Positions 2,881-45,272 of a stretch of DNA of 64,000 nt are shown here, piece after piece. This stretch comes from Candidatus Gastranaerophilales bacterium (GTDB lineage Bacteria; Cyanobacteriota; Vampirovibrionia; Gastranaerophilales; Gastranaerophilaceae). The notes under the pieces were generated by a model that saw only the letters and a list, made by a program, of their open reading frames with translations, did no database searches and had not been told where the DNA came from. Made by a program: the position numbers and the translations under genes. The DNA lies in the NCBI GenBank assembly GCA_910587375.1, contig CAJULR010000022.1, forward strand, positions 8,431 to 72,430, given 5' to 3'. How positions within the stretch are numbered: the stretch's first letter is position 1; every line of letters begins with the position of its first letter.

Positions 2881-3250
2881 AAAGAAAGTCGGAGGATAAT
2901 CGCGCGAGGGTTTAAACCTTTGTGAGGAAAGTCCGGACATCCAAAAAGGCGTGTTGCCTGGGAAAGCCAGGTGCGTGTGAGCGTGAGGACAGTGCCACAG
3001 AAAAGAAGAATGCCCTTCTTTTAAAGGAAGCCTTAGAAGGTTTTCTATATGAAGCTTGGGTGATTGTGCAACGGCGGAGTAAGAGCCCACCGCCTCTTCC
3101 CGTAAGGGCAGAGGGCAAGGTAAACCCCAACAGGATGCAAGTTCGGCTTTGCGGCTATGGTGCCTTTTCCTCCCTTTGGGGCCGCATAAAGGAACGCATT
3201 AGACAGATGATTATCTTGAAACAGAATCCGGCTTATTACCGGCTTTCTTT
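2881..3250 (+). ncRNA. rnpB: RNase P RNA, bacterial type A
   Basis: Conserved blocks are present: GAGGAAAGTCCGGAC, GAGTAAGAGCCCACC, GGTAAACCCCAAC and ACAGAATCCGGCTTAT. A P1 helix forms between aaagaaagtcgg (2881-2892) and ccggctttcttt (3239-3250). The overlapping track ORFs are spurious. Confidence 0.85.
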
Positions 3251-3306
3251 TTATGCGTGCAAAATGTCCGGTTTTCCACAGGGTCTATATGCTGTTTATA
3301 AGGAAA

Positions 3307-3588
3307 TCATTTGTTCAAATCCAGGACACAGCGCACACCAAAGGCGTTGGTAGAAGAATTGCTATTAACCGTGAAACTGCCACTATTCAAGTTGCCTCTG
3401 TAATAACTAGTGCCGCTGTTAAGCGTGCCTGACCATACGTTGTTCGGGTAGCAGTTGTTATTGGTCGCGCCCGTGCAGCCGCTGGTACGGTTCTGGCACT
3501 GCAAGGCGCCGTAACCTGAATTGTTGTCGCAGAGCTGCAAACAAAACGTGGTGCAGTGGGACAACAGGAGTGGAACCAACTTTGTCAT
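3307..3588 (-). CDS. small Cys-rich protein with DUF1566/Lcl-C-terminal-like ending (...AFGVRCVLD); possible gene fragment
   Basis: 93-codon ORF with a hydrophobic N-terminus, 8 Cys and Asn/Ser/Gly-rich content. The C-terminal xFGVRCV motif resembles DUF1566-type domains. An in-frame stop lies 12 codons upstream, inside repeat DNA. Confidence 0.4.
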   Translation of the reverse strand: MTKLVPLLLSHCTTFCLQLCDNNSGYGALQCQNRTSGCTGATNNNCYPNNVWSGTLNSGTSYYRGNLNSGSFTVNSNSSTNAFGVRCVLDLNK

Positions 3589-3656
3589 CCTGAATACAAG
3601 CGCGTCATCCTGAACACAAATGCGTCATCCTGAACTTGTTTCAGGATCTCAAGATT
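3584..3656 (+). repeat. three 20-nt-spaced gtcatcctgaa half-sites, the last completing hairpin repeat H1 (gtcatcctgaacttgtttcaggatctcaagatt)
   Basis: Half-sites start at 3584, 3604 and 3624. The H1 stem is atcctgaa/ttcaggat. The same 33-mer family recurs at 4116, 7066(-), 7820(-), 8194 and 26084. Confidence 0.85.
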
Positions 3657-3915
3657 CAGTTGGTTTCTCAACCTTGCGACTCTGCCTTAATGTTTTAATC
3701 TCGCACTTTAATCTAAACTTTAAAGTGCAATAGCTAAGTTTAATTTCAGCCTAAGCCATCGGAGGCAAAACCCCATACGGTGGCAACATTTGACGATTTG
3801 AAATCCCATTCTGCTAAGGCCCGTAAGCCTCAACACTCCAAGGGCGATTTCCTTATTTAATATTACTTCTCTTTTTGCCCCATGGCAAATTTGTTAAAAA
3901 AGGAGTGTGAAAAAA

Positions 3916-3942
3916 GTAGGTTGGGCATACTTGCCCAACATC
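3916..3942 (+). repeat. hairpin repeat H2a (gtaggttgggcatacttgcccaacatc)
   Basis: Stem gttgggca/tgcccaac. A near-identical copy lies at 26004-26030 inside the 5' end of the 906-aa ORF. Confidence 0.8.
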
Positions 3943-4042
3943 AACTAATGGGCGTAAAAAAAGGAGCGCGAAGGTTACATAACGCGCCCCGAAAAGTTGT
4001 TTATCGTAAAAATTTGTTTTGTATGAAAGTTTAGATTTGTCG

Positions 4043-4200
4043 CGTCATTGCGAGGGACCAACGGGAGTGCGGCAATCTAGAAACCAGTGTCGAAAAAGCC
4101 AATCAACATGCAGTCGTCATCCTGAACTTGTTTCAGGATCTCAAGATTAAGTAAAATTTTCCTGGATTGCTTCGTCGCTGTCGCAACGCTCGCAATGACG
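4043..4200. repeat. composite palindromic repeat: two inverted cgtcattgcgag...gcaatc(c/t)ag copies flanking an H1 hairpin (4116-4148)
   Basis: Copy A (4043-4085, +) and copy B (4161-4200, -) are mutually inverted. A third copy lies at 8289-8334 (-). Confidence 0.8.
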
Positions 4201-4240
4201 TGTCCGCTCCGTAAGGCAGGGGCTAAAAGGCCCCAAAACC

Positions 4241-7204
4241 CTACATAGACGTGCTCTTATATTCAATTATGACAACCCCGTCGCCGCCATAGCCGCCAAG
4301 TCCGCCCACCCCGTCAACAACAGCGCCGCCTCCGCCGCCTCCGCCAAAGACTCCGGGCTTTCCTTGCGCTCCGCTTGCTGCTGCGTTACAATTTCCCGCA
4401 GCGCTCATGTTTCCGCCACAGCCGCCAAGTGGTGGCCCCGCAACTTTCCCGTCTTTGGATTTTATAAACGTCGCAAAGGTGTTGTCGATGTTTTGATAGA
4501 TATATTCCATATATCCGCCGATTCCGCCGCCGATTTCAGAGCCCGCATGCCCGTGCACGGCTGCTCCTTCGTCTGCAGCATAGTTATTATAGTTGTCAGG
4601 AAGCTTTTGAACCCCGCCATGGTCGTCTTTTGTAAGGCCGCTGTTGCCTTTAAGGCCGCCTTTTGCCTTTAAAAGCGTGCCAAAAGAGCTTTCGCCGCCC
4701 GCGCCGTCATAGGCTGTGCCGTTTGCCGCGGTTCCTGTTTTGCCGCCTTTGCCGATTGTGATTGGGATTTCGCTTCCCGGTTTTAAGTTATATAAAGTTG
4801 TAGATTTATATTCGCCGCTGGTGCCGCCCCCGCCGTTGCTGCCGCCATATTCAATGTAAATATAGCCGCTTGCACCTGCAGCGCCCATGCCAAAGGTGTC
4901 CCCTGTGGTTTGTGCGCCTGCTCCGCCGCCTCCGCCTGCGCCGTAGCTGTCGATTGCTGGTGTGGAGCCGTTTTTAACGCTGTTTCCGCCAGTTCCCCCT
5001 GAAACGCTTTCTGCTTTCATATTTTGGATGTTTCCGCCTGCGCCGCCAAAACCTTTGTTTGTAATTGCAGAGGCCAAAATGCCTTCGCCGCCTCCATATC
5101 CGCCTGTAAAGGTTTTGTTTAGCCAGTTTCCGCTTGCGTTTGCAACGTTATCCTGCATAATAAACACGCGTGTTCCAAGCCTTGCGCCGCCAGCAGAGGC
5201 CACATTCGGGTCTGAAGAGTATTGGCCTGCGTTTCCGCCAAGGGCTGTTGCAATGATTGTGCCTGTGGAAGAGCCGCGGCGGATGTAGGTTGCGCCGCCG
5301 TTGTTTCCGTTTTTGCCTGCGCTCACTTGGTTTGCGCCGCCTGCGCCCACTTCAAAATATAGGGTTTCGCCTGGGGTCACGGTGATTTCACCAATGGTCA
5401 TTTGGCCTGCGCCCCCGCCGCCCCCGCCATTTGCCGGCATATTATATGTGCATTTCAAGGCATTTGTCCTTGCCCCCGACTGCCCGTAACAAAGACGTAG
5501 CGCACCAGGCATGCCGTTGTTGGCCGCATTATTTGCATCTTTAGTGTTTTGTGTTCCATCGCCACCGTTACAATAATTGGCGCTTTTCCATATTGTAGTA
5601 GTACCTATAGTACCGGCAGTACTACTATTGCCAGATTTGCCTCCGTACCCTCCGCCTCCACCAACACCTGCAGATGTAGTACCTGTATTTCCGGTCAAAC
5701 CATTACCTATGCCTACAGTTGTATTTAAATATGTCCCACCTCCACCTCCAGCTCCAGCTCCACCTTTTCCACTTCCACCTGCTCCACCCCCTCCGCCATA
5801 TCCGCCCCCACCACCTCCGCCTCCTCCTGCACCGTAATATGTGCTTGAACTATAATGATAGCTTCCACCCCCACCCCCACCCCCACCAATTTGAAATATT
5901 ATAGTACCAGAGGTTCCTGAAGCAGTAGAAATTGATGTTGGGCCTCCGCCACCCCCACCCCCACCTGTTGCAAGACTTCCACTACCATTTGAATATGCAT
6001 TTCTTGCGCCCCCACCTCCGCCTCCACCCCATATTCCACCTCTTCCGCCACTTCCTGCATAACTGCTTGATATAGCATTACTACCTGTTCCCCCATACGA
6101 GATGGCAGTTCCAGTTCCATTTGAACCAGATGTTGCGTTTCCAGTAGAAGATTGCAGTCCTTGGCCACCATTACCTCCATATGTGCCTCCATTTCCACCG
6201 CTGTAGTTGCCACTCCAAGCTCCACCACCTCCACCTCCAGCACTATATCCACCTTCATTGCCACTGTGTTTACCTATTGCGCCCCCACCTCCACCTCCAG
6301 CAACTTTTATATAAACAGTTGATACAGATGAAGTTACTGATGCATTTGCTATATATCCACCTGAGCCTCCACCGCCACCATATGTATCGTACCCTGCACC
6401 ACCCCCACCCCCGCCGCCGCAGGCGGTGACTTTGAGTTCAGCTCCGGCTGTGGCTCCGGGGGTATATTTAACGCTTTCATCTGCCGTTAAGGTCCACTGT
6501 GTCACGCCTGAGGACTTACAGGCGCTGTCCAATTCGGGGACAATCCAGCTTGCATTGTTAGGAATTGTAAAGCTGTGTTCACCCGCGCTTAAAAAATCTT
6601 TACATGTTTCTGCAGCAGTTACCGAGGGAATATCTCCATAAGCTGTACCCACCCCAACGCCGCCGCTGGCGCCGCCTCCGCCGCCACCGACCATATAAAC
6701 GCGAAGTTTTGTAACGCCTTCCGGGACTTTCCAGCTTTGAACAGAGCTTGGGTTTTTAAATTCTAAAACGCCGTGGAATGCGTCCCCGCCTGCGCCTCCG
6801 CCGCCGAGCATGGTCACTTTGGCAGAGTTTACGTCAACCGGAACAAGAAAGGTTCCATCTTCGTTAAAAATCTGAATAACCGCGTCTTTATCGTATTGTG
6901 CGGCGCCAACGCCCGAAACATTGATTGTGGCTTCGTCCATGCGCTTTGTCATGACAGGCGCCAAGGCCGCCATGAGTAACGACGCCACCAATAGAGCCAT
7001 AAGCATTTCCACCAACGAAAACGCAGCATGGGATGATGTTGGGTTAAAACCCAACCTACGGGTTTGAGATTCTGAAACAAGTTCAGAATGACAAAGTCGG
7101 TCCCCGTTCGTTGGCCGAACAGTGTCCATTGGTTGAACGGCCGCAGTGCGGTTTAGAGCTGCAAAACTGCAGCTGTTTTTGAACAACTTTTTAAACATAA
7201 ACAA
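4241..7204 (-). CDS. giant glycine-rich protein with type IV prepilin-like N-terminal cleavage/methylation segment
   Basis: HAA|FSLVEMLMALLVASLLMAALAPVMTK matches the N_methyl-type motif (F-S-L-V-E plus a hydrophobic helix). The rest consists of stacked Gly-rich modules with runs of up to 9 Gly. Modules are bounded by beta-like strands (SWKVPEGVTKLRVYMVGGGGGG ... GYIYIEYGG ... GVVIIEYK). The true start is uncertain: TTG 7204, ATG 7198, or an internal TTG near 7050. Confidence 0.85.
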   Translation of the reverse strand: MFMFKKLFKNSCSFAALNRTAAVQPMDTVRPTNGDRLCHSELVSESQTRRLGFNPTSSHAAFSLVEMLMALLVASLLMAALAPVMTKRMDEATINVSGVGAAQYDKDAVIQIFNEDGTFLVPVDVNSAKVTMLGGGGAGGDAFHGVLEFKNPSSVQSWKVPEGVTKLRVYMVGGGGGGASGGVGVGTAYGDIPSVTAAETCKDFLSAGEHSFTIPNNASWIVPELDSACKSSGVTQWTLTADESVKYTPGATAGAELKVTACGGGGGGGAGYDTYGGGGGSGGYIANASVTSSVSTVYIKVAGGGGGGAIGKHSGNEGGYSAGGGGGGAWSGNYSGGNGGTYGGNGGQGLQSSTGNATSGSNGTGTAISYGGTGSNAISSSYAGSGGRGGIWGGGGGGGARNAYSNGSGSLATGGGGGGGGPTSISTASGTSGTIIFQIGGGGGGGGSYHYSSSTYYGAGGGGGGGGGYGGGGGAGGSGKGGAGAGGGGGTYLNTTVGIGNGLTGNTGTTSAGVGGGGGYGGKSGNSSTAGTIGTTTIWKSANYCNGGDGTQNTKDANNAANNGMPGALRLCYGQSGARTNALKCTYNMPANGGGGGGAGQMTIGEITVTPGETLYFEVGAGGANQVSAGKNGNNGGATYIRRGSSTGTIIATALGGNAGQYSSDPNVASAGGARLGTRVFIMQDNVANASGNWLNKTFTGGYGGGEGILASAITNKGFGGAGGNIQNMKAESVSGGTGGNSVKNGSTPAIDSYGAGGGGGAGAQTTGDTFGMGAAGASGYIYIEYGGSNGGGGTSGEYKSTTLYNLKPGSEIPITIGKGGKTGTAANGTAYDGAGGESSFGTLLKAKGGLKGNSGLTKDDHGGVQKLPDNYNNYAADEGAAVHGHAGSEIGGGIGGYMEYIYQNIDNTFATFIKSKDGKVAGPPLGGCGGNMSAAGNCNAAASGAQGKPGVFGGGGGGGAVVDGVGGLGGYGGDGVVIIEYKSTSM
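7038..7092 (-). repeat. hairpin repeats H2b (gtaggttgggttttaacccaac) and H1 variant (gtcattctgaacttgtttcagaatctc) inside the 5' part of the 987-aa ORF
   Basis: Reverse complement of 7038-7059 and of 7066-7092. The order and spacing relative to the FSLVEM codons match those in the 906-aa gene. Confidence 0.8.
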
Positions 7205-7737: not shown

Positions 7738-7819
7738 GGGATTTAAGTTTTAAAGAGTTGTTTTTTATATCGTAGGTTGCATTTTAAGGAGTTGATAGAG
7801 CTGGATGAATTTCAAGTTC

Positions 7820-7852
7820 AATCTTGAGATCCTGAATCAAGTTCAGGATGAC
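7820..7852 (-). repeat. hairpin repeat H1, inverted orientation
   Basis: aatcttgagatcctgaatcaagttcaggatgac is the reverse complement of the H1 consensus with one loop change. Confidence 0.8.
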
Positions 7853-7890
7853 GGCTGCACATTGAATGGCCGGATTTACTGTACCAAGTA

Positions 7891-8088
7891 TTAATTTACG
7901 GTGCGGAAAAGCTCTTCCAGGGCGTTATTCAGGCTGTTTATTTTATGCTCGATTTCAATAAGTGCCTGGCCGTAAGGCAGAGTGTCATTGGTTTTTTGCT
8001 CTGTGTTCAGGAGGGCCATTTTAAGAACGTGGGTTGAGTTTCTGATTTCGAGGAGTTTTTCTGTGATTTCGAGGTGTTTTTGGAACAT
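7891..8088 (-). CDS. hypothetical 65-aa helical protein (weak call)
   Basis: Track ORF only. The sequence is heptad-like and rich in Leu/Glu. It lies between inverted H1 copies. No homology recognised. Confidence 0.3.
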   Translation of the reverse strand: MFQKHLEITEKLLEIRNSTHVLKMALLNTEQKTNDTLPYGQALIEIEHKINSLNNALEELFRTVN

Positions 8089-8193
8089 TTGATGATTCCT
8101 TTTTGTTTTACGTTTTTATTTTTGCACAGTTTTTTTGAAATGTATGTAAGCAAAAAGATTACAAGGATGAAGGCGGAGGTTTGGATTGGCCGT

Positions 8194-8334
8194 GTCATCC
8201 TGAACTTGTTTCAGGATCTCGAGATTTTTGCGCTATATCAACAGACCCTGAAATAAATTCAGGGTGACAAAGTCTTTTCAGCGGCGTTGGTTTCTGGATT
8301 GCCGCGGTACGCTGTCGCTTCCCTCGCAATGACG
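8194..8334. repeat. repeat cluster: H1 (8194-8226,+), H1 variant (8245-8268,-), cgtcattgcgag-type copy C (8289-8334,-)
   Basis: Direct sequence matches to the copies at 3624, 4116 and 4043-4200. The overlapping track ORFs (8074-8256, 8195-8551) are built from these repeats. Confidence 0.8.
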
Positions 8335-8381
8335 TAACCATTGAATGATTATAGTGCGAAACCTTGCGATGATGGTGAAGG

Positions 8382-25255: not shown

Positions 25256-25465
25256 TCAAAAGAAATATTTCATATCCACCCCGAAAAATTCAGCAAGTTT
25301 GTATAAAGTTTTAATGTTTATTGAGTGTTTACCGTTTTCAATGTTTGAAAGGTGGTCCCTTGAAATTTCAACTTCAAAGGCGACTGCCTCTTGAGAGAGT
25401 TCTTTTTCAAGCCTCAAATGCTTTAACCGTCTGCCTATTTCGTTCTGCAATGCCTTAATGCCCAT
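25256..25465 (-). CDS. XRE-family HTH transcriptional regulator (69 aa)
   Basis: IGRRLKHLRLEKELSQEAVAFEVEISRDHLSNIENGK. It shares the LSNIENGK block with the regulator at 7399. Confidence 0.8.
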   Translation of the reverse strand: MGIKALQNEIGRRLKHLRLEKELSQEAVAFEVEISRDHLSNIENGKHSINIKTLYKLAEFFGVDMKYFF

Positions 25466-25470
25466 ATAAT

Positions 25471-25635
25471 TTATTCTTCTCTATCAAGCTCTTGAAGAGC
25501 ATATTCACAGCACTGCTGGACTAAATTATTTAAAGAAACACCCTTATCCTGTGCAACAATTTGCAGCTCCTGCACCAGCTTTGCGGGCAGTCTGAAAGTT
25601 TTATTTATCATTTCAGGTTTTTCAACTTTGAACAT
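25471..25635 (-). CDS. ribbon-helix-helix (CopG/Arc-like) small protein, 54 aa
   Basis: Hand-translated ORF below the track cutoff: MFKVEKPEMINKTFRLPAKLVQELQIVAQDKGVSLNNLVQQCCEYALQELDREE. The pattern is a beta-strand (TFRLP) followed by two helices. It is packed 3-5 nt from both neighbouring genes. Confidence 0.5.
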   Translation of the reverse strand: MFKVEKPEMINKTFRLPAKLVQELQIVAQDKGVSLNNLVQQCCEYALQELDREE

Positions 25636-25638
25636 CGT

Positions 25639-25854
25639 CTAATCAAATTTTAATCCTATTTTTGCATTGGCAATCTGTGCTATCAGGTTTGCTTCCTCAA
25701 ATCTCAAACTTTTACGGCGCACCCTTGCATATAAAGATTGCCTTGAATATTTTTTGCCGGTTTTTTGTGTCAATAATTCAGCAATTTGTGCATAAGTTAA
25801 ACCGGTTTGTGCCTGAATATGTTTGATAAATTGATTTGCGTCCATACCCTGCAT
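25639..25854 (-). CDS. small HTH DNA-binding protein (71 aa)
   Basis: TGLTYAQIAELLTQKTGKKYSRQSLYARV is HTH-like. It is the first gene of the three-gene minus-strand regulator array. Confidence 0.6.
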   Translation of the reverse strand: MQGMDANQFIKHIQAQTGLTYAQIAELLTQKTGKKYSRQSLYARVRRKSLRFEEANLIAQIANAKIGLKFD

Positions 25855-25866
25855 TCTAAAATCTTA

Positions 25867-25894
25867 TTGACTTATGTACAAATATATATACAAT
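25867..25894 (+). promoter_or_regulatory. candidate sigma-70-type promoter TTGACT-16 nt-TACAAT for the 906-aa gene
   Basis: TTGACT at 25867-25872 and TACAAT at 25889-25894. A second candidate is acGACA-17-TATAAT at 25918-25946. Confidence 0.4.
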
Positions 25895-25904
25895 ATTGTA
25901 TATA
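25885..25904. promoter_or_regulatory. perfect 20-bp palindrome tatatacaat|attgtatata, candidate operator
   Basis: Verified base by base. It overlaps the candidate -10 and lies between the divergent regulator array and the 906-aa gene. Confidence 0.5.
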
Positions 25905-25984
25905 GTTATATACATATACGACACAACTAGGTTAACTGGATATAATTTTTGATTGTTGATTAATTAAAAAAAAGGAATTATAAA

Positions 25985-28705
25985 ATGCAAAACAAGCAAA
26001 TCTGTAAGTTGGGCATACTTGCCCAACATCATTCAATGACAGCTGCTCAATCAACGAAAAAAGCAATCAACCAACGTGCAACCGTCACCCTGAACTTGAT
26101 TCAGGGTCTCAACCAACGTGCACCCCGTAGGTTGGGTTTTAACCCAACACCACCCCATGCTGCTTTCTCTCTTGTGGAAATGCTCATGGCCCTTCTTGTG
26201 GCCTCCCTGCTGCTTGCGGCCCTTGCCCCCGTTATGACAAAGAAAATGTCCGAAAATATAAACGTTAACGGCATTTCAGGCGGCGGCCATGCCCCTGCTG
26301 TCTTTAAATGTTGGGACTACGACAGCCCGGAACTCCAGCCTGCGGCGGACGGCAGCAACTATAAAGTCCTCCCCGAAGCCTATCCTGTGGATGACGCCTG
26401 GAATATTAATTTCATCCTTGCTTCAGGCGGCGGCGGAGGCGCCGGTGCCACAATTCCAAACGAAACAAGCCACAGTTTTGACGGCACGGGCGAATTAAAA
26501 ATCGAGCCTGAAATGGATGAAATAGACATTGTTTCAATGATTGGAGGCGGCGCAGGGGGCGGAGGAGGCGCCGCAGTATTTAGCTCTGCCACTTGCACAG
26601 GCGGCCCGTCAGAGGCCAAATGCGAGTGTATGGGCGCAACATACGACTCTGTAAATAAAGTTTGCGTTTCAAATAATTTAGGTTCAAAAAACTTAACAAA
26701 TGCAAAAACAGCATGCCAAAATGTTACACCTCTTAACAAATGGAGTTTGCCAACAACAAGCCAGCTTTCAAACTGGAAGACTAATACGCTGTATTCAACC
26801 CTTGGAATTATAAGCGGGCAGACAGTTTGGAGCCAAACAAGCGGCCAAGGAGCATGCTCTAGTAGCACTTCGACCTATAATTGCTATTACAATGGTGCAT
26901 ATAGAACAGGCTATGCAAGTGAAACAGAATGTTGCAGTGGGAGTAGTTATGGTAGCAAGAAGGGAGCATATGAGCCCAACAATAATTCTTGTGGTGTGTA
27001 TTGCGCTGCAAGAAATGTAACATCTTCCCCTGGAAGTGGCTGGTTTAAAGGCGATGGCCAAACTGCAACAAAATGCGGAGGAACGGGAGGATGTAATTGG
27101 GGTAGTACGGATTATTTTAAATGTGGAACCTGTCCTGATTCTGACACCTGTGCTTCCACTGTTACAACTTCTTGTTCTTCATATTATACAAACTACTACT
27201 TCTACCAACTCACAGGTTCGACCTGGTCCCAAAGTTATGCAACAGATAACACAGGCTCCAGACAGACTTATTGCGTATATAATGACTCCGCAAATGTCAC
27301 AGGTGAAAGCTTCTACTCCCTATCAGGCGGCGGAGGAGGTGGTGCGCCCGCAATTTCAGACAATAATTTCGATTCAAACATTTTAAATACATTTAGAAAA
27401 AGAGTTAAGGAAAACGCCGGCGGCTACCTTGAATTTCAGCGCGGCACAGGCGGAAACGGCGGCGACGCAAGTGCTTCTAAAAACCAAAAAGCAGGAAACG
27501 GCGCAGACGGCGGAGATACCTGTATTATCGTGAAAAACGCGGCACGCGCGTATAAATATAAACTTTGCGTTTCGGGCGGAAACGGCGGCGGGGGCGCAAA
27601 CGCCACCAAAGCAGATTCTTCAACCACAGGCTGGGGCTATGCAGGAGGCGAAAAGAATAACGCAAATGCTTGCTATGTCGTGGATTACACGGCAAATTCC
27701 GCAGGCGTGAAGACAGATTTTGACTGTGCATTAAAAGGAAAAGCCGGAGGGGCAGGCGGCGCCTCAACAAGCAACCCGACAGCGGGCGGAAAAGGCGCTG
27801 CAAGCGTATTAAACAGCACACAAGTTGGCGGAACTGCAGTAAAAGACGGGGTTAGCGCCTCAACTTCAAACTATGGCGCAGGCGGAGGCGGCGGCTCTGC
27901 CTCGAAAACAGGCTATGGCTCTTCAGCAACTCTTGCTTTTGGCAAGGGCGGAAACGGCGCGCCGGGGTATATCAAAATAAACTATAAGAAAAAATTCGCA
28001 GCAGCAGGCGGCGGAGGCGGAGGCGGAGGCTATGTTGCCCATATAAATAATATTACGGTCGGAAAAACCGCAACCTGTGAAATCAAAGTGGGATACGGCG
28101 GGGCAGGAGGCGCTGCCGGGATAAAAGGCTATGACGGCGGAGATTCAAGCGTCACTTGCTCAAATGCGCCAAATGTTACCTACAGAATTACGGGCGGAAA
28201 AGGCGGAGAATTAGGCAGCACAACAGCCGGCGGCCTTGGCGGAGAGGCAGGCACCTATGATGACACAGGGAACATCTTCACAAGGCTTTTCAGCCAGGGA
28301 AATTTCAGACAGGCTGCGGGCCTTGCCGGAAAACAAGGCGGGGCGGGCGATTCCGCAAACTTTAAGGCAAACGTTCGAAGCGCAGGCGGCAGAGGCGGCA
28401 CGGGCGGAACCGGCGAAAAGGGCAAATGCGGCGGTATTTATACAGAAAGCGGCGTTTGCGCCACAGTGCAGGCGGATGAGAATAACGACATAACCGAACC
28501 AAACCAGGACGCCTTGAACGGCGAGGGTTTTGGGGCAGGAGAAATTACAGCGCCCACAAAGGATGGCATAGTTGAGGCCACGCCAAAATACGGAAAAGCA
28601 GGCGCTGGCGGGGGCGGAGGGGCCTGGTATGTAGGCAAAAACCCTGGCCGCGGGGGTGCCGGCCAAGGCGGATATGTCTGCATTTATTGGGACAAGCTGG
28701 AGTAG
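25985..28705 (+). CDS. giant glycine-rich protein with type IV prepilin-like N-terminal segment and a central Cys-rich DUF1566-like insert
   Basis: HAA|FSLVEMLMALLVASLLLAALAPVMTK is nearly identical to the 987-aa protein. Gly-rich modules end in GYIKINYKK and GYVCIYWDK. The central part holds about 18 Cys and a KWSLPTTSQLSNW motif. The true start is uncertain (ATG 25985 with an AAGGA site upstream, or TTG 26132). Confidence 0.85.
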   Translation: MQNKQICKLGILAQHHSMTAAQSTKKAINQRATVTLNLIQGLNQRAPRRLGFNPTPPHAAFSLVEMLMALLVASLLLAALAPVMTKKMSENINVNGISGGGHAPAVFKCWDYDSPELQPAADGSNYKVLPEAYPVDDAWNINFILASGGGGGAGATIPNETSHSFDGTGELKIEPEMDEIDIVSMIGGGAGGGGGAAVFSSATCTGGPSEAKCECMGATYDSVNKVCVSNNLGSKNLTNAKTACQNVTPLNKWSLPTTSQLSNWKTNTLYSTLGIISGQTVWSQTSGQGACSSSTSTYNCYYNGAYRTGYASETECCSGSSYGSKKGAYEPNNNSCGVYCAARNVTSSPGSGWFKGDGQTATKCGGTGGCNWGSTDYFKCGTCPDSDTCASTVTTSCSSYYTNYYFYQLTGSTWSQSYATDNTGSRQTYCVYNDSANVTGESFYSLSGGGGGGAPAISDNNFDSNILNTFRKRVKENAGGYLEFQRGTGGNGGDASASKNQKAGNGADGGDTCIIVKNAARAYKYKLCVSGGNGGGGANATKADSSTTGWGYAGGEKNNANACYVVDYTANSAGVKTDFDCALKGKAGGAGGASTSNPTAGGKGAASVLNSTQVGGTAVKDGVSASTSNYGAGGGGGSASKTGYGSSATLAFGKGGNGAPGYIKINYKKKFAAAGGGGGGGGYVAHINNITVGKTATCEIKVGYGGAGGAAGIKGYDGGDSSVTCSNAPNVTYRITGGKGGELGSTTAGGLGGEAGTYDDTGNIFTRLFSQGNFRQAAGLAGKQGGAGDSANFKANVRSAGGRGGTGGTGEKGKCGGIYTESGVCATVQADENNDITEPNQDALNGEGFGAGEITAPTKDGIVEATPKYGKAGAGGGGGAWYVGKNPGRGGAGQGGYVCIYWDKLE
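26004..26148 (+). repeat. hairpin repeats H2a (26004-26030), H1 variant (26084-26110) and H2b (26127-26148) inside the annotated 5' end of the 906-aa ORF
   Basis: Direct matches to intergenic copies at 3916, 3624/4116/8194 and 45205. Confidence 0.85.
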
Positions 28706-34099: not shown

Positions 34100-36901
34100 A
34101 TGAAAGTTAACGGTTCATTTAAAGGTATAAATCCTTCTGATAATAATTCTGCAAAAAAGCGCATAACAAAAGCCGCAATCCTTACAGGAGTTGTGGTTGG
34201 TGGCGCTGCATTGTATGGCAGGGGGAAGAAAAGCCCTGCTTTTCAAAAATTTGCAAGCACTTTAGCCAGTGATATTTTAACTCCCCTGAAACAAAAGGGG
34301 GTGCCTTTTAATGAAAAAATTGCAAATATTGGTGCAAATTTAAAACAATCCATTGGCGTTTTCACATCAAAAAGAAACAGATATGACGATATTATCGATA
34401 TCAGGCCGGGAAGGCAGCTTCCAGCGCTTCCTGAAAGGTCTTCTGCAAGTTATGTTGATAGCGCTTTAAGAAATCTGATTTATAAAGATAACGGGCAAAT
34501 TATTTTTGACATTCCCATAATTCCGGACGCAAACATTCCGCAGCAGAGCGGAAAAATTCTCGCACTTTCTGCCCCCGGAAACAGGCTTGCACTTCCTGAA
34601 AAAGCAGGAGGCGCGGCAGGCAATGTTGTGGAAAAAATACATTATAAGACTGTGCTGCCTGCGACTCCGCGTGTTATTGAGCTGCCGGGTGAAATTGCAG
34701 AAACCGCAGCAACCGTTGGCGAAGGGGTTACAGGAGCTTCAGAAAAAGCTGGTGGAAAATTTGCTGCAGCGGCAGGTGCAAGTGCAATTTTAGCAGGCGG
34801 TGTTGCGGCCTCAAAATTAAATAATGATGAAGAACCCAAGGTTCCTGCAAAAGACGTTAAACCCAAGGGAGCCAAAGAAACGAAAGGGCCTGCAAAAACA
34901 GCCGGGGCGCCAAAATCTGACAAAGTTCAGACGGTGACATTAAACGGTAAAGAATTTGGCGGCATTTTTGAAGACGGTATTGCATACGATGAAGAATGTG
35001 AACCCTTGACAGGAAGCCTTGTTGCAGGTTTTAAATCCGGCAAGACCGTTGTGCTTCAATATGAAGATGGTGTTTTGCAAAAATCTCTTATCTTTAAAGG
35101 TAAAGACGATGAAGCACCAAAAGAAATTAAAACTTATAAAAACGGAAAAATACATCAAAAATTCGAAGGCATAACTTTTGAAGATGGTGTATATGTTGCA
35201 AAAACAACTTCAACTTACCGTGCAAATGATTCTATGCTTCAAAGCAGGGAAGTTAAAGGCAAAAAGACCGTCCGCACAAAACACTTTAAAAACAGTTTGG
35301 ATGAAAACGGTAAAATAAACGGTAAACCCATTCCTGTAATGACTACAAGCGTTAGTCACTCAAATAATGGTACTGAAGTAAGAAAGTTCTATGCAATTAC
35401 AGGAGATGACACAGAAAGGCTTGCAAGAATAAGTGAAGCAAGGCCGGACGGCACAAAAGAAATTAAGCTTGTGGGCAATGGCGGAAATCCTGTAAGCACG
35501 ATGATTTTAAATAATGACAGACAAATTAATTGGTATATAACAGACCCTGACAGCCCGAATGATTCATACATATACATTAATAACGGCAAGGTGGCCGATG
35601 TAACAACAAGTATGAAATTTAATGACAAAGAACAGCTTATGGAATATGTCGGCTATACATATGCCGGGTCTGAAACTACGCCCCTAAAGCCTCTAGAAGA
35701 AGGGGAAACAAAATATAATGTACCTCATAAAACAACTACGCGTTATAAATCAAAAGAAGGTGAAATGTTTGTTATAACAACAGTTGTTAACAATGGACAT
35801 GAATACGTTACAAAGATTGAAGGATTTGAAAACGAAAAAGATACAGAACCTAAGAGCACCAGAATATATTCTGAAAATGATAAGATTGTGGCGGATTATT
35901 CTGAACATACATCCCCAATAACAGGTGAATTGCGAACCAAGCTGTCTATATGCAAGGGCGGAAAAGCGATGTCTTTCCCAACGCTTGAAAAGCTTGAATG
36001 TGCCGACGATTCTATTGAAGCCTACAGAAAGGCAGACGGTTCTGTTGTTGAAATTGAAAAAGACGAAGATGGTTATATAGTGTCAATTGCAACCTATGCT
36101 AATGAAGAAATTGACTATCCTGAATGTATTACAATTTTTGACCATGGCATGCCTGTAAAAGACGCAATATTTGATGTTGACGGCAATGTAGTTTTTAAAT
36201 CAAAATACAGCATAAAACCCGTTCCAAAGCAAGAAGTGGTGCAAGAAGCGCCGAAAATATTGACAAAAGAAGAGTCTATAAGACAGCCCGGCGGTTTTAA
36301 ATTTGACAATGATACGTATAATTCAATAACGTTCTATGAAAACATGTGGACCGGAAAATACTATCAGCCTGCAGACGTTAAGCGAATTGAAAGAGATAAA
36401 GAAGACGCGTATCGCATAACTCTTCTAAATCCGTATTCATATAACACGCCTGCATATAATATGCTTTTGGACCAAAATAATACAATTCAGCTTCTTAGCG
36501 TATATTCAAGCGGTAATACGGTTGAACTATTCTTGGATGAAGAAGGGCGTCTTGATGTTGATGATTTAAAATATGCCATTAAAGAAGGCGAACTTAAACA
36601 TGTCGGGCCTTTCAAGAAAAACATCGAAAGATATCAAATGGAAAAGGGCGAAGTTATTGAATTTGTAAAACGTGAAGACGGAACTGTTGCCTCTATTGCT
36701 TATTATGAAGATGAAACAAGTGATACTCCTGTTTGCAGAACCTTTGTAAAAGGTGGTGTTCCAACAACAGATGTTGTATATAATTTAGAAGATGGAAGCT
36801 ATGTTTATAATGAATCTTCACTAAGTGGTTTAGATATGCTTGAAAACCCGATTGAAGATATTTATATAAACAACATATTTGGCGGCCCGGAGAGAAAATA
36901 A
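34100..36901 (+). CDS. large orphan membrane-anchored repeat protein (933 aa)
   Basis: Two hydrophobic segments (AAILTGVVVGGAALYG; AAAAGASAILAGGVAAS) and a Lys/Pro-rich linker. These are followed by MORN/YwqK-like turns (YEDGVLQKSLIF, YKNGKIHQKF) and two related C-terminal modules (VEIEKDEDGYIVSIATYANEEIDYPEC... / VIEFVKREDGTVASIAYYEDETSDTPVC...). Confidence 0.7.
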   Translation: MKVNGSFKGINPSDNNSAKKRITKAAILTGVVVGGAALYGRGKKSPAFQKFASTLASDILTPLKQKGVPFNEKIANIGANLKQSIGVFTSKRNRYDDIIDIRPGRQLPALPERSSASYVDSALRNLIYKDNGQIIFDIPIIPDANIPQQSGKILALSAPGNRLALPEKAGGAAGNVVEKIHYKTVLPATPRVIELPGEIAETAATVGEGVTGASEKAGGKFAAAAGASAILAGGVAASKLNNDEEPKVPAKDVKPKGAKETKGPAKTAGAPKSDKVQTVTLNGKEFGGIFEDGIAYDEECEPLTGSLVAGFKSGKTVVLQYEDGVLQKSLIFKGKDDEAPKEIKTYKNGKIHQKFEGITFEDGVYVAKTTSTYRANDSMLQSREVKGKKTVRTKHFKNSLDENGKINGKPIPVMTTSVSHSNNGTEVRKFYAITGDDTERLARISEARPDGTKEIKLVGNGGNPVSTMILNNDRQINWYITDPDSPNDSYIYINNGKVADVTTSMKFNDKEQLMEYVGYTYAGSETTPLKPLEEGETKYNVPHKTTTRYKSKEGEMFVITTVVNNGHEYVTKIEGFENEKDTEPKSTRIYSENDKIVADYSEHTSPITGELRTKLSICKGGKAMSFPTLEKLECADDSIEAYRKADGSVVEIEKDEDGYIVSIATYANEEIDYPECITIFDHGMPVKDAIFDVDGNVVFKSKYSIKPVPKQEVVQEAPKILTKEESIRQPGGFKFDNDTYNSITFYENMWTGKYYQPADVKRIERDKEDAYRITLLNPYSYNTPAYNMLLDQNNTIQLLSVYSSGNTVELFLDEEGRLDVDDLKYAIKEGELKHVGPFKKNIERYQMEKGEVIEFVKREDGTVASIAYYEDETSDTPVCRTFVKGGVPTTDVVYNLEDGSYVYNESSLSGLDMLENPIEDIYINNIFGGPERK

Positions 36902-45204: not shown

Positions 45205-45226
45205 GTAGGTTGGGTTTTAACCCAAC
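45205..45226 (+). repeat. hairpin repeat H2b (gtaggttgggttttaacccaac), intergenic copy
   Basis: Identical to 26127-26148 and to the reverse complement of 7038-7059. It sits between convergent genes. Confidence 0.85.
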
Positions 45227-45272
45227 ACCATTAAACTTGCAACAAAACATCCTGTGATGAAATGCCTGCAAA

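What the first reader, a model, noticed from the sequence alone, without database searches (positions are those of the whole stretch)
25985..26182. The 'leader' of the 906-aa gene is assembled from three interspersed hairpin repeats; the start codon is ambiguous
Between ATG 25985 and the FSLVEM codons (26165 onward) lie three repeats: H2a (26004-26030), an H1 variant (26084-26110) and H2b (26127-26148). The same elements occur in clearly non-coding DNA (3916, 3624, 4116, 8194, 45205). There are two readings. In the first, repeat DNA has been exapted as a ~60-aa prepilin leader, far longer than the short leaders usual for type IV pilins. In the second, this stretch is a structured 5' UTR and translation starts at the in-frame TTG 26132. 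That TTG sits inside the H2b stem (gTTGgg/cccaac) and would give an 11-aa leader, MGFNPTPPHAA|F. A start codon sequestered in a hairpin would be a translational control device.
Basis: partly seen in the sequence, partly recalled or inferred. Interest (0 to 1): 0.7.

Follow-up and report, generated by a model that had tools for sequence, protein, structure and literature searches.

The report
Giant prepilin leader built from repeats
A gut bacterium's giant pilin-like gene starts with a 60-residue throw-away leader peptide that is stitched together from mobile hairpin repeats read in frame; this is a tolerated-junk arrangement shared by its gene family, not a hairpin switch hiding an alternative start codon.

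Summary
Three perfect hairpin repeats (H2a, an H1 variant, H2b) lie between ATG 25985 and the FSLVEM codons, and the same elements occur in non-coding DNA. The window comes from a mouse-gut Gastranaerophilales (Melainabacteria) genome.

The gene belongs to a family of about 850-1000-aa glycine-rich pilin-like proteins with an invariant [A/G]|FSLVEMLMALLVASLL N-terminus. I examined 32 family loci. In all of them the reading frame is open from the cleavage site up to a first ATG, which carries a Shine-Dalgarno (SD) match in all but the window's weaker paralogue. Leaders run from 9 to 162 codons. The 15 long leaders hold 0 in-frame stops against 63 and 101 in the other two frames, and they consist of translated dispersed repeats.

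Short-leader relatives share the same first ~15-20 leader residues, so the repeats were inserted inside an already translated leader. H2b is a true REP: its exact 23-mer sits next to RAYT transposase genes in other genomes.

TTG 26132 has no SD and would give an uncharged leader. The distance from H2b to the cleavage site also varies among homologues. The long-leader reading is supported; the UTR/hidden-start reading is not. Cleavage of the leader is inferred, not shown.

The parts
25867..25894 (+). Promoter-like site TTGACT-16-TACAAT. A second candidate has its -10 TATAAT at 25941-25946.
   Evidence: The -35/-10 align with TTGATT/TATAAT upstream of the paralogue.
25972..25976 (+). Shine-Dalgarno AAGGA, 8 nt before the ATG
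   Evidence: Sequence. The same SD-ATG architecture occurs across the family loci.
25985..26164 (+). Leader-coding segment, 60 codons from ATG 25985 to A60. All but the first ~6 and last ~4 codons derive from repeats.
   Evidence: The initiation region 25965-26003 is unstructured at -1.3 kcal/mol.
26004..26030 (+). H2a REP-like element: GTAA plus an 8-bp stem and 4-nt loop (26008-26027), read as C-K-L-G-I-L-A-Q-H
26067..26125 (+). H1-variant unit: hairpin at 26087-26107, flanked by the direct repeat TCAACCAACGTGCA(A/C)CC at 26067-83 and 26109-25 (42-nt spacing)
26127..26149 (+). H2b REP: GTAG (26127-30) plus a hairpin at 26131-26148 (effective 7-bp stem, 4-nt loop), read as R-L-G-F-N-P-T
   Evidence: The exact 23-mer lies next to RAYT genes elsewhere.
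26132..26134 (+). Rejected.
   Evidence: No SD: CCCCGTAGG abuts the codon. It lies inside a -10 kcal/mol stem. The leader MGFNPTPPHAA would have no K/R.
26162..26167 (+). Inferred prepilin-peptidase site A60|F61
   Evidence: Position -1 is A (116) or G (25) in 141 family proteins, while -2 to -5 vary. Matches to PF07963 and TIGR02532.
26165..26242 (+). Hydrophobic N-terminal helix FSLVEMLMALLVASLLLAALAPVMTK with Glu at +5
   Evidence: Nearly invariant across the family, with mostly synonymous changes versus the orthologue.
26165..28705 (+). Mature 846-aa glycine-rich pilin-like protein (PF21722 Gly_rich_2 at the C-terminus), plus stop codon
4241..7198 (-). Paralogue, 985 aa. Its leader spans 7022-7198 (59 codons) and holds an H1 variant at 7069-7089, H2b at 7038-7055, and an unrelated hairpin at 7157-7174.
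3916..3950 (+). Intergenic H2a copy (GTAG + identical hairpin)
45205..45231 (+). Intergenic H2b copy between convergent genes
3623..4152 (+). Intergenic H1 copies at 3623-3660 and 4115-4152. The second lies within a composite R3-H1-R3inv unit (~4041-4200).
7829..8265 (.). Intergenic H1 copies at 7829-7849 (-), 8193-8230 (+) and 8245-8265

Best explanation
The 906-aa gene is translated from ATG 25985, which has an AAGGA SD 8 nt upstream and an unstructured initiation region. The ribosome reads straight through three REP/MITE-type hairpin repeats, which therefore encode most of a 60-residue leader peptide.

The protein has a class III (prepilin-type) signal. The leader stays in the cytoplasm, the FSLVEMLMALLV... 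helix spans the membrane, and a prepilin peptidase is inferred to cut between A60 and F61, discarding the leader.

Because the leader is discarded, its sequence is almost unconstrained. It is therefore the one place inside a coding region where mobile palindromic repeats can insert and persist, as long as the frame stays open.

The whole gene family shows this. Leaders range from 5 to 162 residues and are inflated in repeat-rich genomes.

Shown: the repeats, the open frame, the SD-ATG, the family pattern, and the REP identity of H2b. Inferred: actual initiation at the ATG, cleavage at A|F, and neutrality of the repeats.
For: (1) Frame and start. In all 32 family loci (30 from Gastranaerophilales/Vampirovibrio MAGs, plus the two window copies), frame 0 is open from F+1 up to a first ATG. 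That ATG has an SD match in 31 of them; the paralogue's GAG is weaker. Leaders are 9-162 codons.

(2) Stop counts. The 15 leaders of at least 50 codons total 1316 codons with 0/63/101 stops in frames 0/1/2. At 0.062 stops per codon, the chance of 60 open codons is 0.021, and of all 1316 is about 1e-37. Frame 0 is the longest open frame in 25 of 32 loci (p = 3e-7). Median open length is 54 versus 13 codons.

(3) Repeats inserted inside a pre-existing leader. The leader N-terminal module MK.LS.F.AL.RALFSLSKT is shared by 27-36-aa and 76-85-aa leaders. MKNFSEFLIIYKRHA|F (15 aa) matches the start of a 135-aa leader in L022. The paralogue's MFKKLFK start resembles the 18-aa L020 leader.

(4) Remodelling without loss of frame. 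The orthologue L002 (82% identity) keeps H1v and H2b but has other repeats in place of H2a. Its leader is 129 codons, still open to an SD-ATG. The two window paralogues read H1 in different frames, yet indels of 2+5-10 nt restore the frame.

(5) Cleavage site. Position -1 is only A or G in 141 family proteins, and K/R cluster at -3 to -5. This matches the rule for prepilin leaders in PMC10191384.

(6) Repeat location. H2 and R3 repeat cores number 25 in 5.2 kb of leaders, 10 in 36 kb of intergenic DNA, and 0 in 176 kb of other coding DNA.

(7) H2b is a REP. Its exact 23-mer occurs in 48 unrelated metagenome stretches, often as inverted doublets. In four loci it lies 50-130 nt upstream of RAYT genes (NF047646, 163 and 198 bits).

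(8) Genome dependence. Leader length tracks the genome: MGBC159708 has 68-162 codons and MGBC142924 has 9-38.

(9) Stability. The exact 906-aa product, leader included, is called on 24 or more contigs.
Against: There is no direct evidence of initiation or of cleavage: no proteomics, ribosome profiling or 5' ends.

No prepilin peptidase or pilus machinery lies in the window. Its presence in the order rests on PMC5877343.

The prepilin-motif HMM matches are at or just under curated thresholds for the full-length protein (PF07963 19.4 vs 21.2 bits; TIGR02532 15.3 vs 16.3). TIGR02532 passes only for the shortened construct (19.3 bits).

The window leaders have their only K/R at -13/-14, unusually far from the site.

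A few other long leaders do have an internal SD-like start, so dual initiation cannot be excluded family-wide (L022 TTG -15 after AGGAGG; L030 ATG -11).

Repeats are 17-fold denser in leaders than in intergenic DNA, more than pure tolerance predicts. However, repeat cores travel in composite units and the loci were chosen around these genes.
Confidence: 0.8

Rival explanations
1. Structured 5' UTR with translation starting at TTG 26132 inside the H2b stem. The hairpin would act as a translational control device and give an 11-aa leader, MGFNPTPPHAA.
For: TTG 26132 is in frame and lies in the 5' arm of a -10 kcal/mol hairpin. The 26 nt around H2b are 100% identical between the two paralogues, although the flanking coding DNA has many synonymous differences. 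An 11-aa leader would be a normal length for the family.
Against: There is no SD: CCCCGTAGG abuts the TTG. The leader would contain no K/R, unlike 89 of 92 family leaders.

The upstream frame is open to an SD-ATG here, in the paralogue and in the orthologue. A UTR would not need that.

H2b lies at -11, -17 (P0055) or -30 (P0146/L081) from the cleavage site and is absent from most family members.

The identity of H2b copies is a family property of a REP element. The same 23-mer is found in unrelated genomes next to RAYT genes.
Confidence: 0.04
2. The long N-terminal extension is translated but not removed. The protein would be a signal-anchored membrane or surface protein with a 60-residue cytoplasmic tail, and the pilin-like motif would no longer serve as a cleavage site.
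For: Prepilin HMM scores are marginal. Position -1 is mostly Ala rather than the classical Gly. No peptidase gene lies in the window. No prepilin leader anywhere near 60-160 aa came up in the review consulted.
Against: Position -1 is strictly A or G, +1 is F and +5 is E across 141 proteins, while neighbouring leader positions vary freely. That is the signature of a maintained peptidase site, and Ala is an accepted -1 residue (PMC10191384).

A functional tail would not be replaced wholesale between orthologues, nor vary from 5 to 162 residues.
Confidence: 0.1
3. The repeats are translated and also functional in the leader. Hairpins inside the coding leader would tune ribosome loading or mRNA stability, or would serve as recombination substrates that swap promoter-leader modules among the 5-6 or more paralogues per genome.
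For: Repeat cores are about 17 times denser in leaders than in neighbouring intergenic DNA. The palindromes stay perfect in leader copies through paired changes: TCCTGAA/TTCAGGA versus CCCTGAA/TTCAGGG versus TTCTGAA/TTCAGAA. Both window paralogues carry a perfect hairpin starting at +24/+25 from the ATG, though the sequences are unrelated. The paralogue leaders are far more alike in DNA than the genes' bodies, which share only 34% aa identity.
Against: Many family members have short leaders with no hairpin of 7 bp or more. Leader inflation tracks the genome rather than the gene lineage. Stem variants also exist in intergenic copies, e.g. 8245-8265, so paired changes may predate insertion. Repeat cores come in composite units, so the counts are not independent.
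Confidence: 0.12

Closest known systems
Class III (prepilin-type) signal peptide of type IV pilins / Com-type pilins (IPR012902, PF07963, TIGR02532; best NCBIfam hit ComGC NF040999)
   Same: A hydrophilic leader ending in Ala/Gly, then Phe+1, Glu+5 and a ~22-residue hydrophobic helix. The leader is expected to stay cytoplasmic and be removed by a prepilin peptidase (PMC10191384).
   Different: The leader is 60 aa here and up to 162 aa in the family. Leaders of S. sanguinis T4aP pilins and T4b pilins are already called 'very long' or 'much longer'; from memory these run to roughly 18-30 aa. The leader is made of mobile repeats. The mature part is an ~850-aa glycine-rich protein rather than a ~150-aa pilin. 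HMM scores are marginal.
Rickettsia palindromic elements (RPE) and other intragenic MITEs inserted in frame into protein-coding genes (Ogata et al. 2000, as summarised in PMC10969869)
   Same: Selfish palindromic repeats with non-coding copies elsewhere are inserted in coding DNA. They are read in frame, the host ORF stays open, and homologues without the insertion exist.
   Different: Here several short, unrelated repeat families are stacked, and only in a segment that is predicted to be cleaved off. None occurs in 176 kb of other coding DNA. RPEs are ~100-150 bp and sit inside mature proteins.
REP / REPIN elements mobilised by RAYT (REP-associated tyrosine transposase, NF047646)
   Same: H2a and H2b have a 5' GTAG (GTAA in one copy) followed by an 18-20-nt palindrome. 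They occur in multiple near-identical copies and as inverted doublets in other genomes. The exact H2b 23-mer lies just upstream of RAYT genes in four loci.
   Different: REPs are by definition extragenic, yet 3 of the 5 window copies are inside ORFs and translated. No RAYT gene was found in the 64-kb window, and the rest of this genome could not be searched.
Start-codon/SD-sequestering mRNA hairpins (RNA thermometers and similar translational switches)
   Same: A potential start codon (TTG 26132) is base-paired in a stable hairpin.
   Different: There is no SD and no conserved start-hairpin geometry across homologues. The upstream frame is open and has its own SD-ATG. The hairpin is a generic REP.

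Membership tests
Type IV pilin-like protein with class III signal peptide | Leader ends in Gly or Ala, immediately followed by the hydrophobic segment | tested here: met
   A60|F61 in the window gene. Position -1 is A (116) or G (25) in 141 family proteins. The rule comes from PMC10191384.
Type IV pilin-like protein with class III signal peptide | A ~20-25-residue hydrophobic stretch with Glu at +5 | tested here: met
   FSLVE(+5)MLMALLVASLLLAALAPV
Type IV pilin-like protein with class III signal peptide | Curated HMM threshold reached (PF07963 / TIGR02532) | tested here: inconclusive
   Full-length protein: PF07963 19.4 bits versus cut-off 21.2; TIGR02532 15.3 versus 16.3. Fragment from codon 50: TIGR02532 19.3, which passes 16.3.
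Type IV pilin-like protein with class III signal peptide | Short hydrophilic, positively charged leader (typically under ~30 aa) | tested here: not met
   The leader is 60 aa here; the family median is 23 and the maximum 162. K/R here lie only at -13/-14 or further.
Type IV pilin-like protein with class III signal peptide | Processing by a prepilin peptidase encoded in the same genome | not testable with these tools
   There is no peptidase in the window. pilD is reported in Ca. Gastranaerophilus (PMC5877343). Cleavage needs an experiment.
In-frame intragenic palindromic repeat (RPE-like) | The same element exists as non-coding copies elsewhere in the genome | tested here: met
   H2a at 3920, H2b at 45209, H1 at 3623/4115/7829/8193/8245
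In-frame intragenic palindromic repeat (RPE-like) | The host ORF stays open across the insertion | tested here: met
   0/63/101 stops in frames 0/1/2 of the 15 long leaders
In-frame intragenic palindromic repeat (RPE-like) | Homologues without the insertion exist | tested here: met
   Short-leader relatives with the same leader N-terminus. The orthologue L002 has a different repeat content.
REP/RAYT element (for H2a/H2b) | 5' GTAG tetranucleotide followed by a short palindrome | tested here: met
   GTAG precedes 4 of the 5 window copies and GTAA precedes H2a at 26004. That GTAG is the REP hallmark rests on my memory of the REP/RAYT literature.
REP/RAYT element (for H2a/H2b) | Association with a RAYT gene | tested here: met
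   In other genomes only. The exact 23-mer lies 50-130 nt upstream of RAYT ORFs in L039, L044, L060 and L069; NF047646 scores were 163 and 198 bits (cut-off 80) for the two ORFs scanned (L060, L044). Not tested for this genome beyond the window.
REP/RAYT element (for H2a/H2b) | Extragenic location | tested here: not met
   3 of the 5 window copies lie inside the two leader-coding segments
Start-codon-sequestering translational switch | A functional ribosome-binding site for the sequestered start | tested here: not met
   No SD upstream of TTG 26132
Start-codon-sequestering translational switch | Hairpin/start geometry conserved among homologues | tested here: not met
   H2b lies at -11, -17 or -30, or is absent. 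Most short leaders have no hairpin of 7 bp or more.

The most novel reading that the evidence does not exclude
Prepilin leaders in these genomes may be selected landing pads rather than just tolerated dumps. REP/MITE hairpins would accumulate there (about 17 times denser than in intergenic DNA) because translated, hairpin-laden leaders set expression levels. Alternatively, they could promote recombination that swaps promoter-leader modules among the 5-6 or more giant pilin-like paralogues per genome, giving a switching system for surface proteins. Either way, a prepilin peptidase would have to process leaders of 60-160 residues, far beyond any leader length described in the literature I consulted.
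Probability: 0.12. Interest if true: 0.7.

Novelty: new variant of a known kind. Interest (0 to 1): 0.45.

Why it matters
If the leaders are translated and cleaved as inferred, three things follow.

1. This family extends the known length range of prepilin leaders several-fold (to 60-160 residues). It offers a natural series for testing what a prepilin peptidase and SRP/Sec targeting tolerate.

2. REPs and MITE-like repeats, normally excluded from genes, can colonise one specific coding niche: a discarded peptide. That makes a clean natural experiment on selection for frame only.

3. It gives gene annotators a practical rule. In these genomes the upstream SD-ATG, not the nearest start to the pilin motif, is the start. 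Repeat-derived 'hypothetical peptide' sequence at an N-terminus need not be an annotation error.

It also removes the case for a hairpin-hidden start codon here.

Tried and rejected
- The word-indexed protein search with residues 49-200 returned only fragments of 265 aa or less. I used them only for the leader census. Full-length relatives came from the exhaustive representative search.
I read the sequences from the data files instead.
- Intrinsic terminators in 25600-26300: none, so the hairpins are not attenuators of the classical kind.
- Rfam on the whole window found only RNase P RNA at 2884-3251 and nothing in the leader.
- Pilus machinery or a prepilin peptidase in the window: none. The neighbours are housekeeping genes (EF-G, SHMT, BipA, RimM, TrmD, MetRS).
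- I suspected that family proteins called from 'MALLV...' (P0077 and others) were frame-disrupted by repeats. The DNA shows an intact SD-ATG and a 15-aa leader, so this is a gene-caller miscall.
- The paralogue's hairpin AGCTGCAgtttTGCAGCT (7157-7174) is not a dispersed repeat in the window; it is a single copy.
- A loosened H1 pattern matched AT-rich coding DNA by chance, so H1 was left out of the density comparison.
- Substitutions in H1v/H2b versus the rest of the shared leader, between the window and L002: 5 changes, all outside the stems. I estimated p at about 0.17 by hand, so it is not informative.
Full report
**Observation**

ORF 25985-28705 (+) encodes 906 aa, and FSLVEM begins at 26165. 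Three perfect hairpins lie between the ATG and that point:
- H2a: GTTGGGCAtactTGCCCAAC at 26008-26027, preceded by GTAA.
- H1 variant: ACCCTGAActtgaTTCAGGGT at 26087-26107.
- H2b: GTTGGGTtttaACCCAAC at 26131-26148, preceded by GTAG.

These are shown. Predicted RNA stabilities are -14.4, -11.1 and -10.0 kcal/mol.

Identical or closely related copies lie in non-coding DNA: H2a at 3920, H2b at 45209, and H1 at 3623, 4115, 8193, 7829(-) and 8245. Chance expectation is 0.08 and 0.00 matches. TTG 26132 is in frame and sits in the 5' arm of H2b.

**Source and gene family**

The exact 906-aa protein is called on 24 or more contigs, including a MAG (GCA_948502535.1).

A scan of species genomes with the two paralogues returned 30 loci. 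All are in mouse-gut Candidatus Gastranaerophilales / 'Vampirovibrio' / Melainabacteria MAGs, with 5-6 copies per MAG.

An exhaustive search of 1.84 billion representative proteins found only 139 clusters. These are mostly ~800-1000-aa glycine-rich proteins (PF21722) with a nearly invariant N-terminus, [A/G]|FSLVEMLMALLVASLL.AALAPVMTK.

The N-terminus matches the prepilin motif weakly (PF07963 19.4 bits; TIGR02532 15.3-19.3 bits; best NCBIfam hit ComGC). The window holds no pilus machinery, and both copies sit among housekeeping genes. pilA-D genes are reported for this order (PMC5877343).

**Where translation starts**

For all 32 family loci I measured the distance from the Phe+1 codon to the nearest upstream stop in each frame, and listed every in-frame start codon.
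- Frame 0 is open up to a first ATG in every locus. That ATG is preceded by a good SD (AAGGAG, AAAGGA and similar, 5-10 nt away) in 31 of them; the window's paralogue has only a weak GAG.
- This gives leaders of 9 to 162 codons.
- Frame 0 is the longest open frame in 25 of 32 loci (p = 3e-7). Median open length is 54 codons, against 13 in the other frames.
- The 15 leaders of 50 codons or more total 1316 codons. They have no frame-0 stop, against 63 and 101 stops in frames 1 and 2. At that stop density, a 60-codon open stretch has probability 0.02, and the whole set about 1e-37.

In the window gene the SD AAGGA (25972-25976) lies 8 nt before ATG 25985. A promoter-like TTGACT-16-TACAAT lies at 25867-25894. 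The initiation region 25965-26003 is unstructured at -1.3 kcal/mol.

TTG 26132, by contrast:
- has no SD (CCCCGTAGG abuts it);
- is paired in a -10 kcal/mol stem;
- would yield MGFNPTPPHAA, a leader with no Lys/Arg. In the family, 89 of 92 distinct leaders have at least one K/R in the last 12 residues.

**The repeats were inserted into an already translated leader**

The long leaders are mosaics of translated dispersed repeats. The peptides SCHCERPAGARQS, VIASEAKQSR, LPRSLTLPRND, SLAMT, HPELVSGSNQ, MLNLVQHD and RRLGFNPT recur.

Short- and long-leader relatives share the same first 15-20 residues:
- MK.LS.F.AL.RALFSLSKT heads leaders of 27-36 aa and of 76-85 aa. The extra length is repeat sequence between this module and the cleavage site.
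- MKNFSEFLIIYKRHA|F (15 aa, L080) matches the start of the 135-aa L022 leader.
- The paralogue's MFKKLFK... resembles the 18-aa L020 leader.

The orthologue L002 (82% identity) keeps H1v and H2b unchanged. Upstream of ...CAATGAC it has different repeats, giving a 129-codon leader that is still open to an SD-ATG.

Changes between the window and L002 are mostly non-synonymous in the leader. In the hydrophobic helix they are almost all synonymous. This fits a translated but otherwise unconstrained leader.

The two window paralogues read H1 in different frames (VTLNLIQGL versus CHSELVSES). Three indels of 2, 5 and 10 nt sum to -3, which restores the frame.

Leader length tracks the genome:

| MAG | Leader lengths (codons) |
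|---|---|
| MGBC159708 | 68-162 (six copies) |
| MGBC142924 | 9-38 (five copies) |

**What the repeats are**

All H2 copies carry a 5' GTAG (GTAA in one) followed by a palindrome.

The exact 23-mer GTAGGTTGGGTTTTAACCCAACA occurs in 48 metagenome stretches of very different origin and GC content (25-58%). None is followed by FSLVEM. It often appears as an inverted doublet with a related palindrome ending in CCTAC.

In four of those loci it lies 50-130 nt upstream of an ORF with RAYT-like motifs. The two I scanned (L060, L044) are REP-associated tyrosine transposases by the NCBIfam equivalog model (NF047646, 163 and 198 bits against a cut-off of 80; PF01797). H2 is therefore a REP in the strict sense.

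H1 and the R3 family (GTCATTGCGAG.../...CTCGCAATGAC) form composite units in intergenic DNA, for example at 4041-4200.

Locations of the H2 and R3 cores (window plus 30 loci):

| Location | Cores | DNA surveyed |
|---|---|---|
| Leaders | 25 | 5.2 kb |
| Intergenic DNA | 10 | 36 kb |
| Other coding DNA | 0 | 176 kb |

Two caveats apply: the cores travel together in composite units, and the loci were chosen around these genes.

**Mechanism proposed**

1. Transcription starts from the promoter just upstream.
2. Translation initiates at ATG 25985.
3. The ribosome reads through the three hairpins.
4. The 60-residue leader stays cytoplasmic while the FSLVEM... helix inserts into the membrane.
5. 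A prepilin peptidase cuts after A60.

The general scheme, including Gly or Ala at -1 and cleavage on the cytoplasmic face, follows PMC10191384. In 141 family proteins, -1 is only A (116) or G (25), while -2 to -5 vary with a K/R bias. This is indirect evidence that the site is used.

Because the leader is discarded, repeats that land in it are harmless provided the frame stays open. Initiation at the ATG, the cleavage, and the neutrality of the repeats are all inferences.

**Rivals**

- The TTG/hairpin-switch model fails on four counts: SD, leader charge, the open upstream frame, and conservation. H2b lies at -11, -17 (P0055) or -30 (P0146/L081) from the site and is absent from most members.
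- An uncleaved cytoplasmic tail remains possible but fits poorly with the strict A/G at -1 and the free replacement of leader content.
- A regulatory or recombinational role for the leader hairpins cannot be excluded. The density excess, the preserved palindromes with paired stem changes, and the hairpins at the same +24/+25 offset in both paralogues remain unexplained.

**Comparison and novelty**

In-frame insertion of palindromic selfish repeats into genes is known, notably the Rickettsia palindromic elements (PMC10969869). Class III signal peptides are textbook.

What is unusual here is the combination. REPs and other repeats are stacked inside a leader predicted to be cleaved off. They inflate it to 60-160 residues across a gene family, and they are absent from all other coding DNA examined.

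I rate this a new variant of a known kind. It is of moderate interest and has no experimental support yet.

Noticed in passing
window 4241-7198 (-): A second family member (985 aa, 34% aa identity to the 906-aa gene). Its 59-codon leader carries the same H1-variant + H2b modules. The 26 nt around H2b are 100% identical between the two genes, although the bodies are highly diverged. This suggests shared descent or gene conversion of the 5' end.
   Followed up: yes
window 25256-25854 (-) and 25873-25916; L080 587-898; L081 911-1132: A divergently transcribed cassette of small genes lies directly upstream of the pilin-like gene: a 69-aa XRE-type HTH, a 54-aa ORF and a 71-aa weak wHTH. An AT-rich palindrome with 22-nt arms overlaps the promoter-like site. 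A divergent XRE-HTH gene also precedes family members in two other loci, so it may be a dedicated regulator.
   Followed up: partly
L032-L079 (metagenome loci); RAYT ORFs at L039 (-) 5355-5900, L044 (-) 378-854, L060 142-672, L069 8802-9248: The exact 23-nt H2b sequence is shared by contigs of 25-58% GC from human gut and sediment. It often forms inverted doublets and in four cases lies just upstream of a RAYT gene. Several AT-rich gut contigs share the same right flank but have different left flanks. Such cross-lineage identity of a REP is odd.
   Followed up: partly
window 7157-7174 (-) versus 26008-26027 (+): Both paralogue leaders have a perfect hairpin starting 24-25 nt after the ATG, but with unrelated stems (AGCTGCAgtttTGCAGCT versus GTTGGGCAtactTGCCCAAC). 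The paralogue's hairpin is single-copy in the window. It is unclear whether this is coincidence, covariation or a positional preference.
   Followed up: partly
window 26067-26083 and 26109-26125: A 17-nt direct repeat, TCAACCAACGTGCA(A/C)CC, flanks the H1-variant hairpin at a spacing of exactly 42 nt (14 codons). This gives the peptide repeat NQRAT...NQRAP. The second copy is missing in the paralogue (10-nt gap).
   Followed up: no
window 3354-4240 and 7738-8381: Two intergenic regions are packed with repeats. One holds a composite unit at about 4041-4200 whose ends look like terminal inverted repeats (CGTCATTGCGAG ... CTCGCAATGACG) around an H1 hairpin, which is MITE-like.
   Followed up: partly
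window 2884-3251 (+): Bacterial RNase P RNA class A (190 bits). This was the only Rfam match in the window.
   Followed up: no
P0010, P0033, P0049, P0071, P0073, P0074, P0077; L080 1077-1140: Public gene calls for several family members start at the internal Met of ...EMLMALLV. For the one checked (P0077), the DNA shows an intact SD-ATG and a 15-aa leader, so the database N-terminus is a start-codon miscall.
   Followed up: partly
window 34100-36901 (+): A 933-aa ORF with no Pfam match at E <= 1e-4, located between bipA and rimM/trmD.
   Followed up: no
L022 (TTG at -15) and L030 (ATG at -11): In two long-leader relatives, the repeat sequence itself supplies an SD-like motif (AGGAGG, AGGA) a few nt before an internal in-frame start. 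Dual initiation giving a short leader is conceivable there, though not in the window gene.
   Followed up: no
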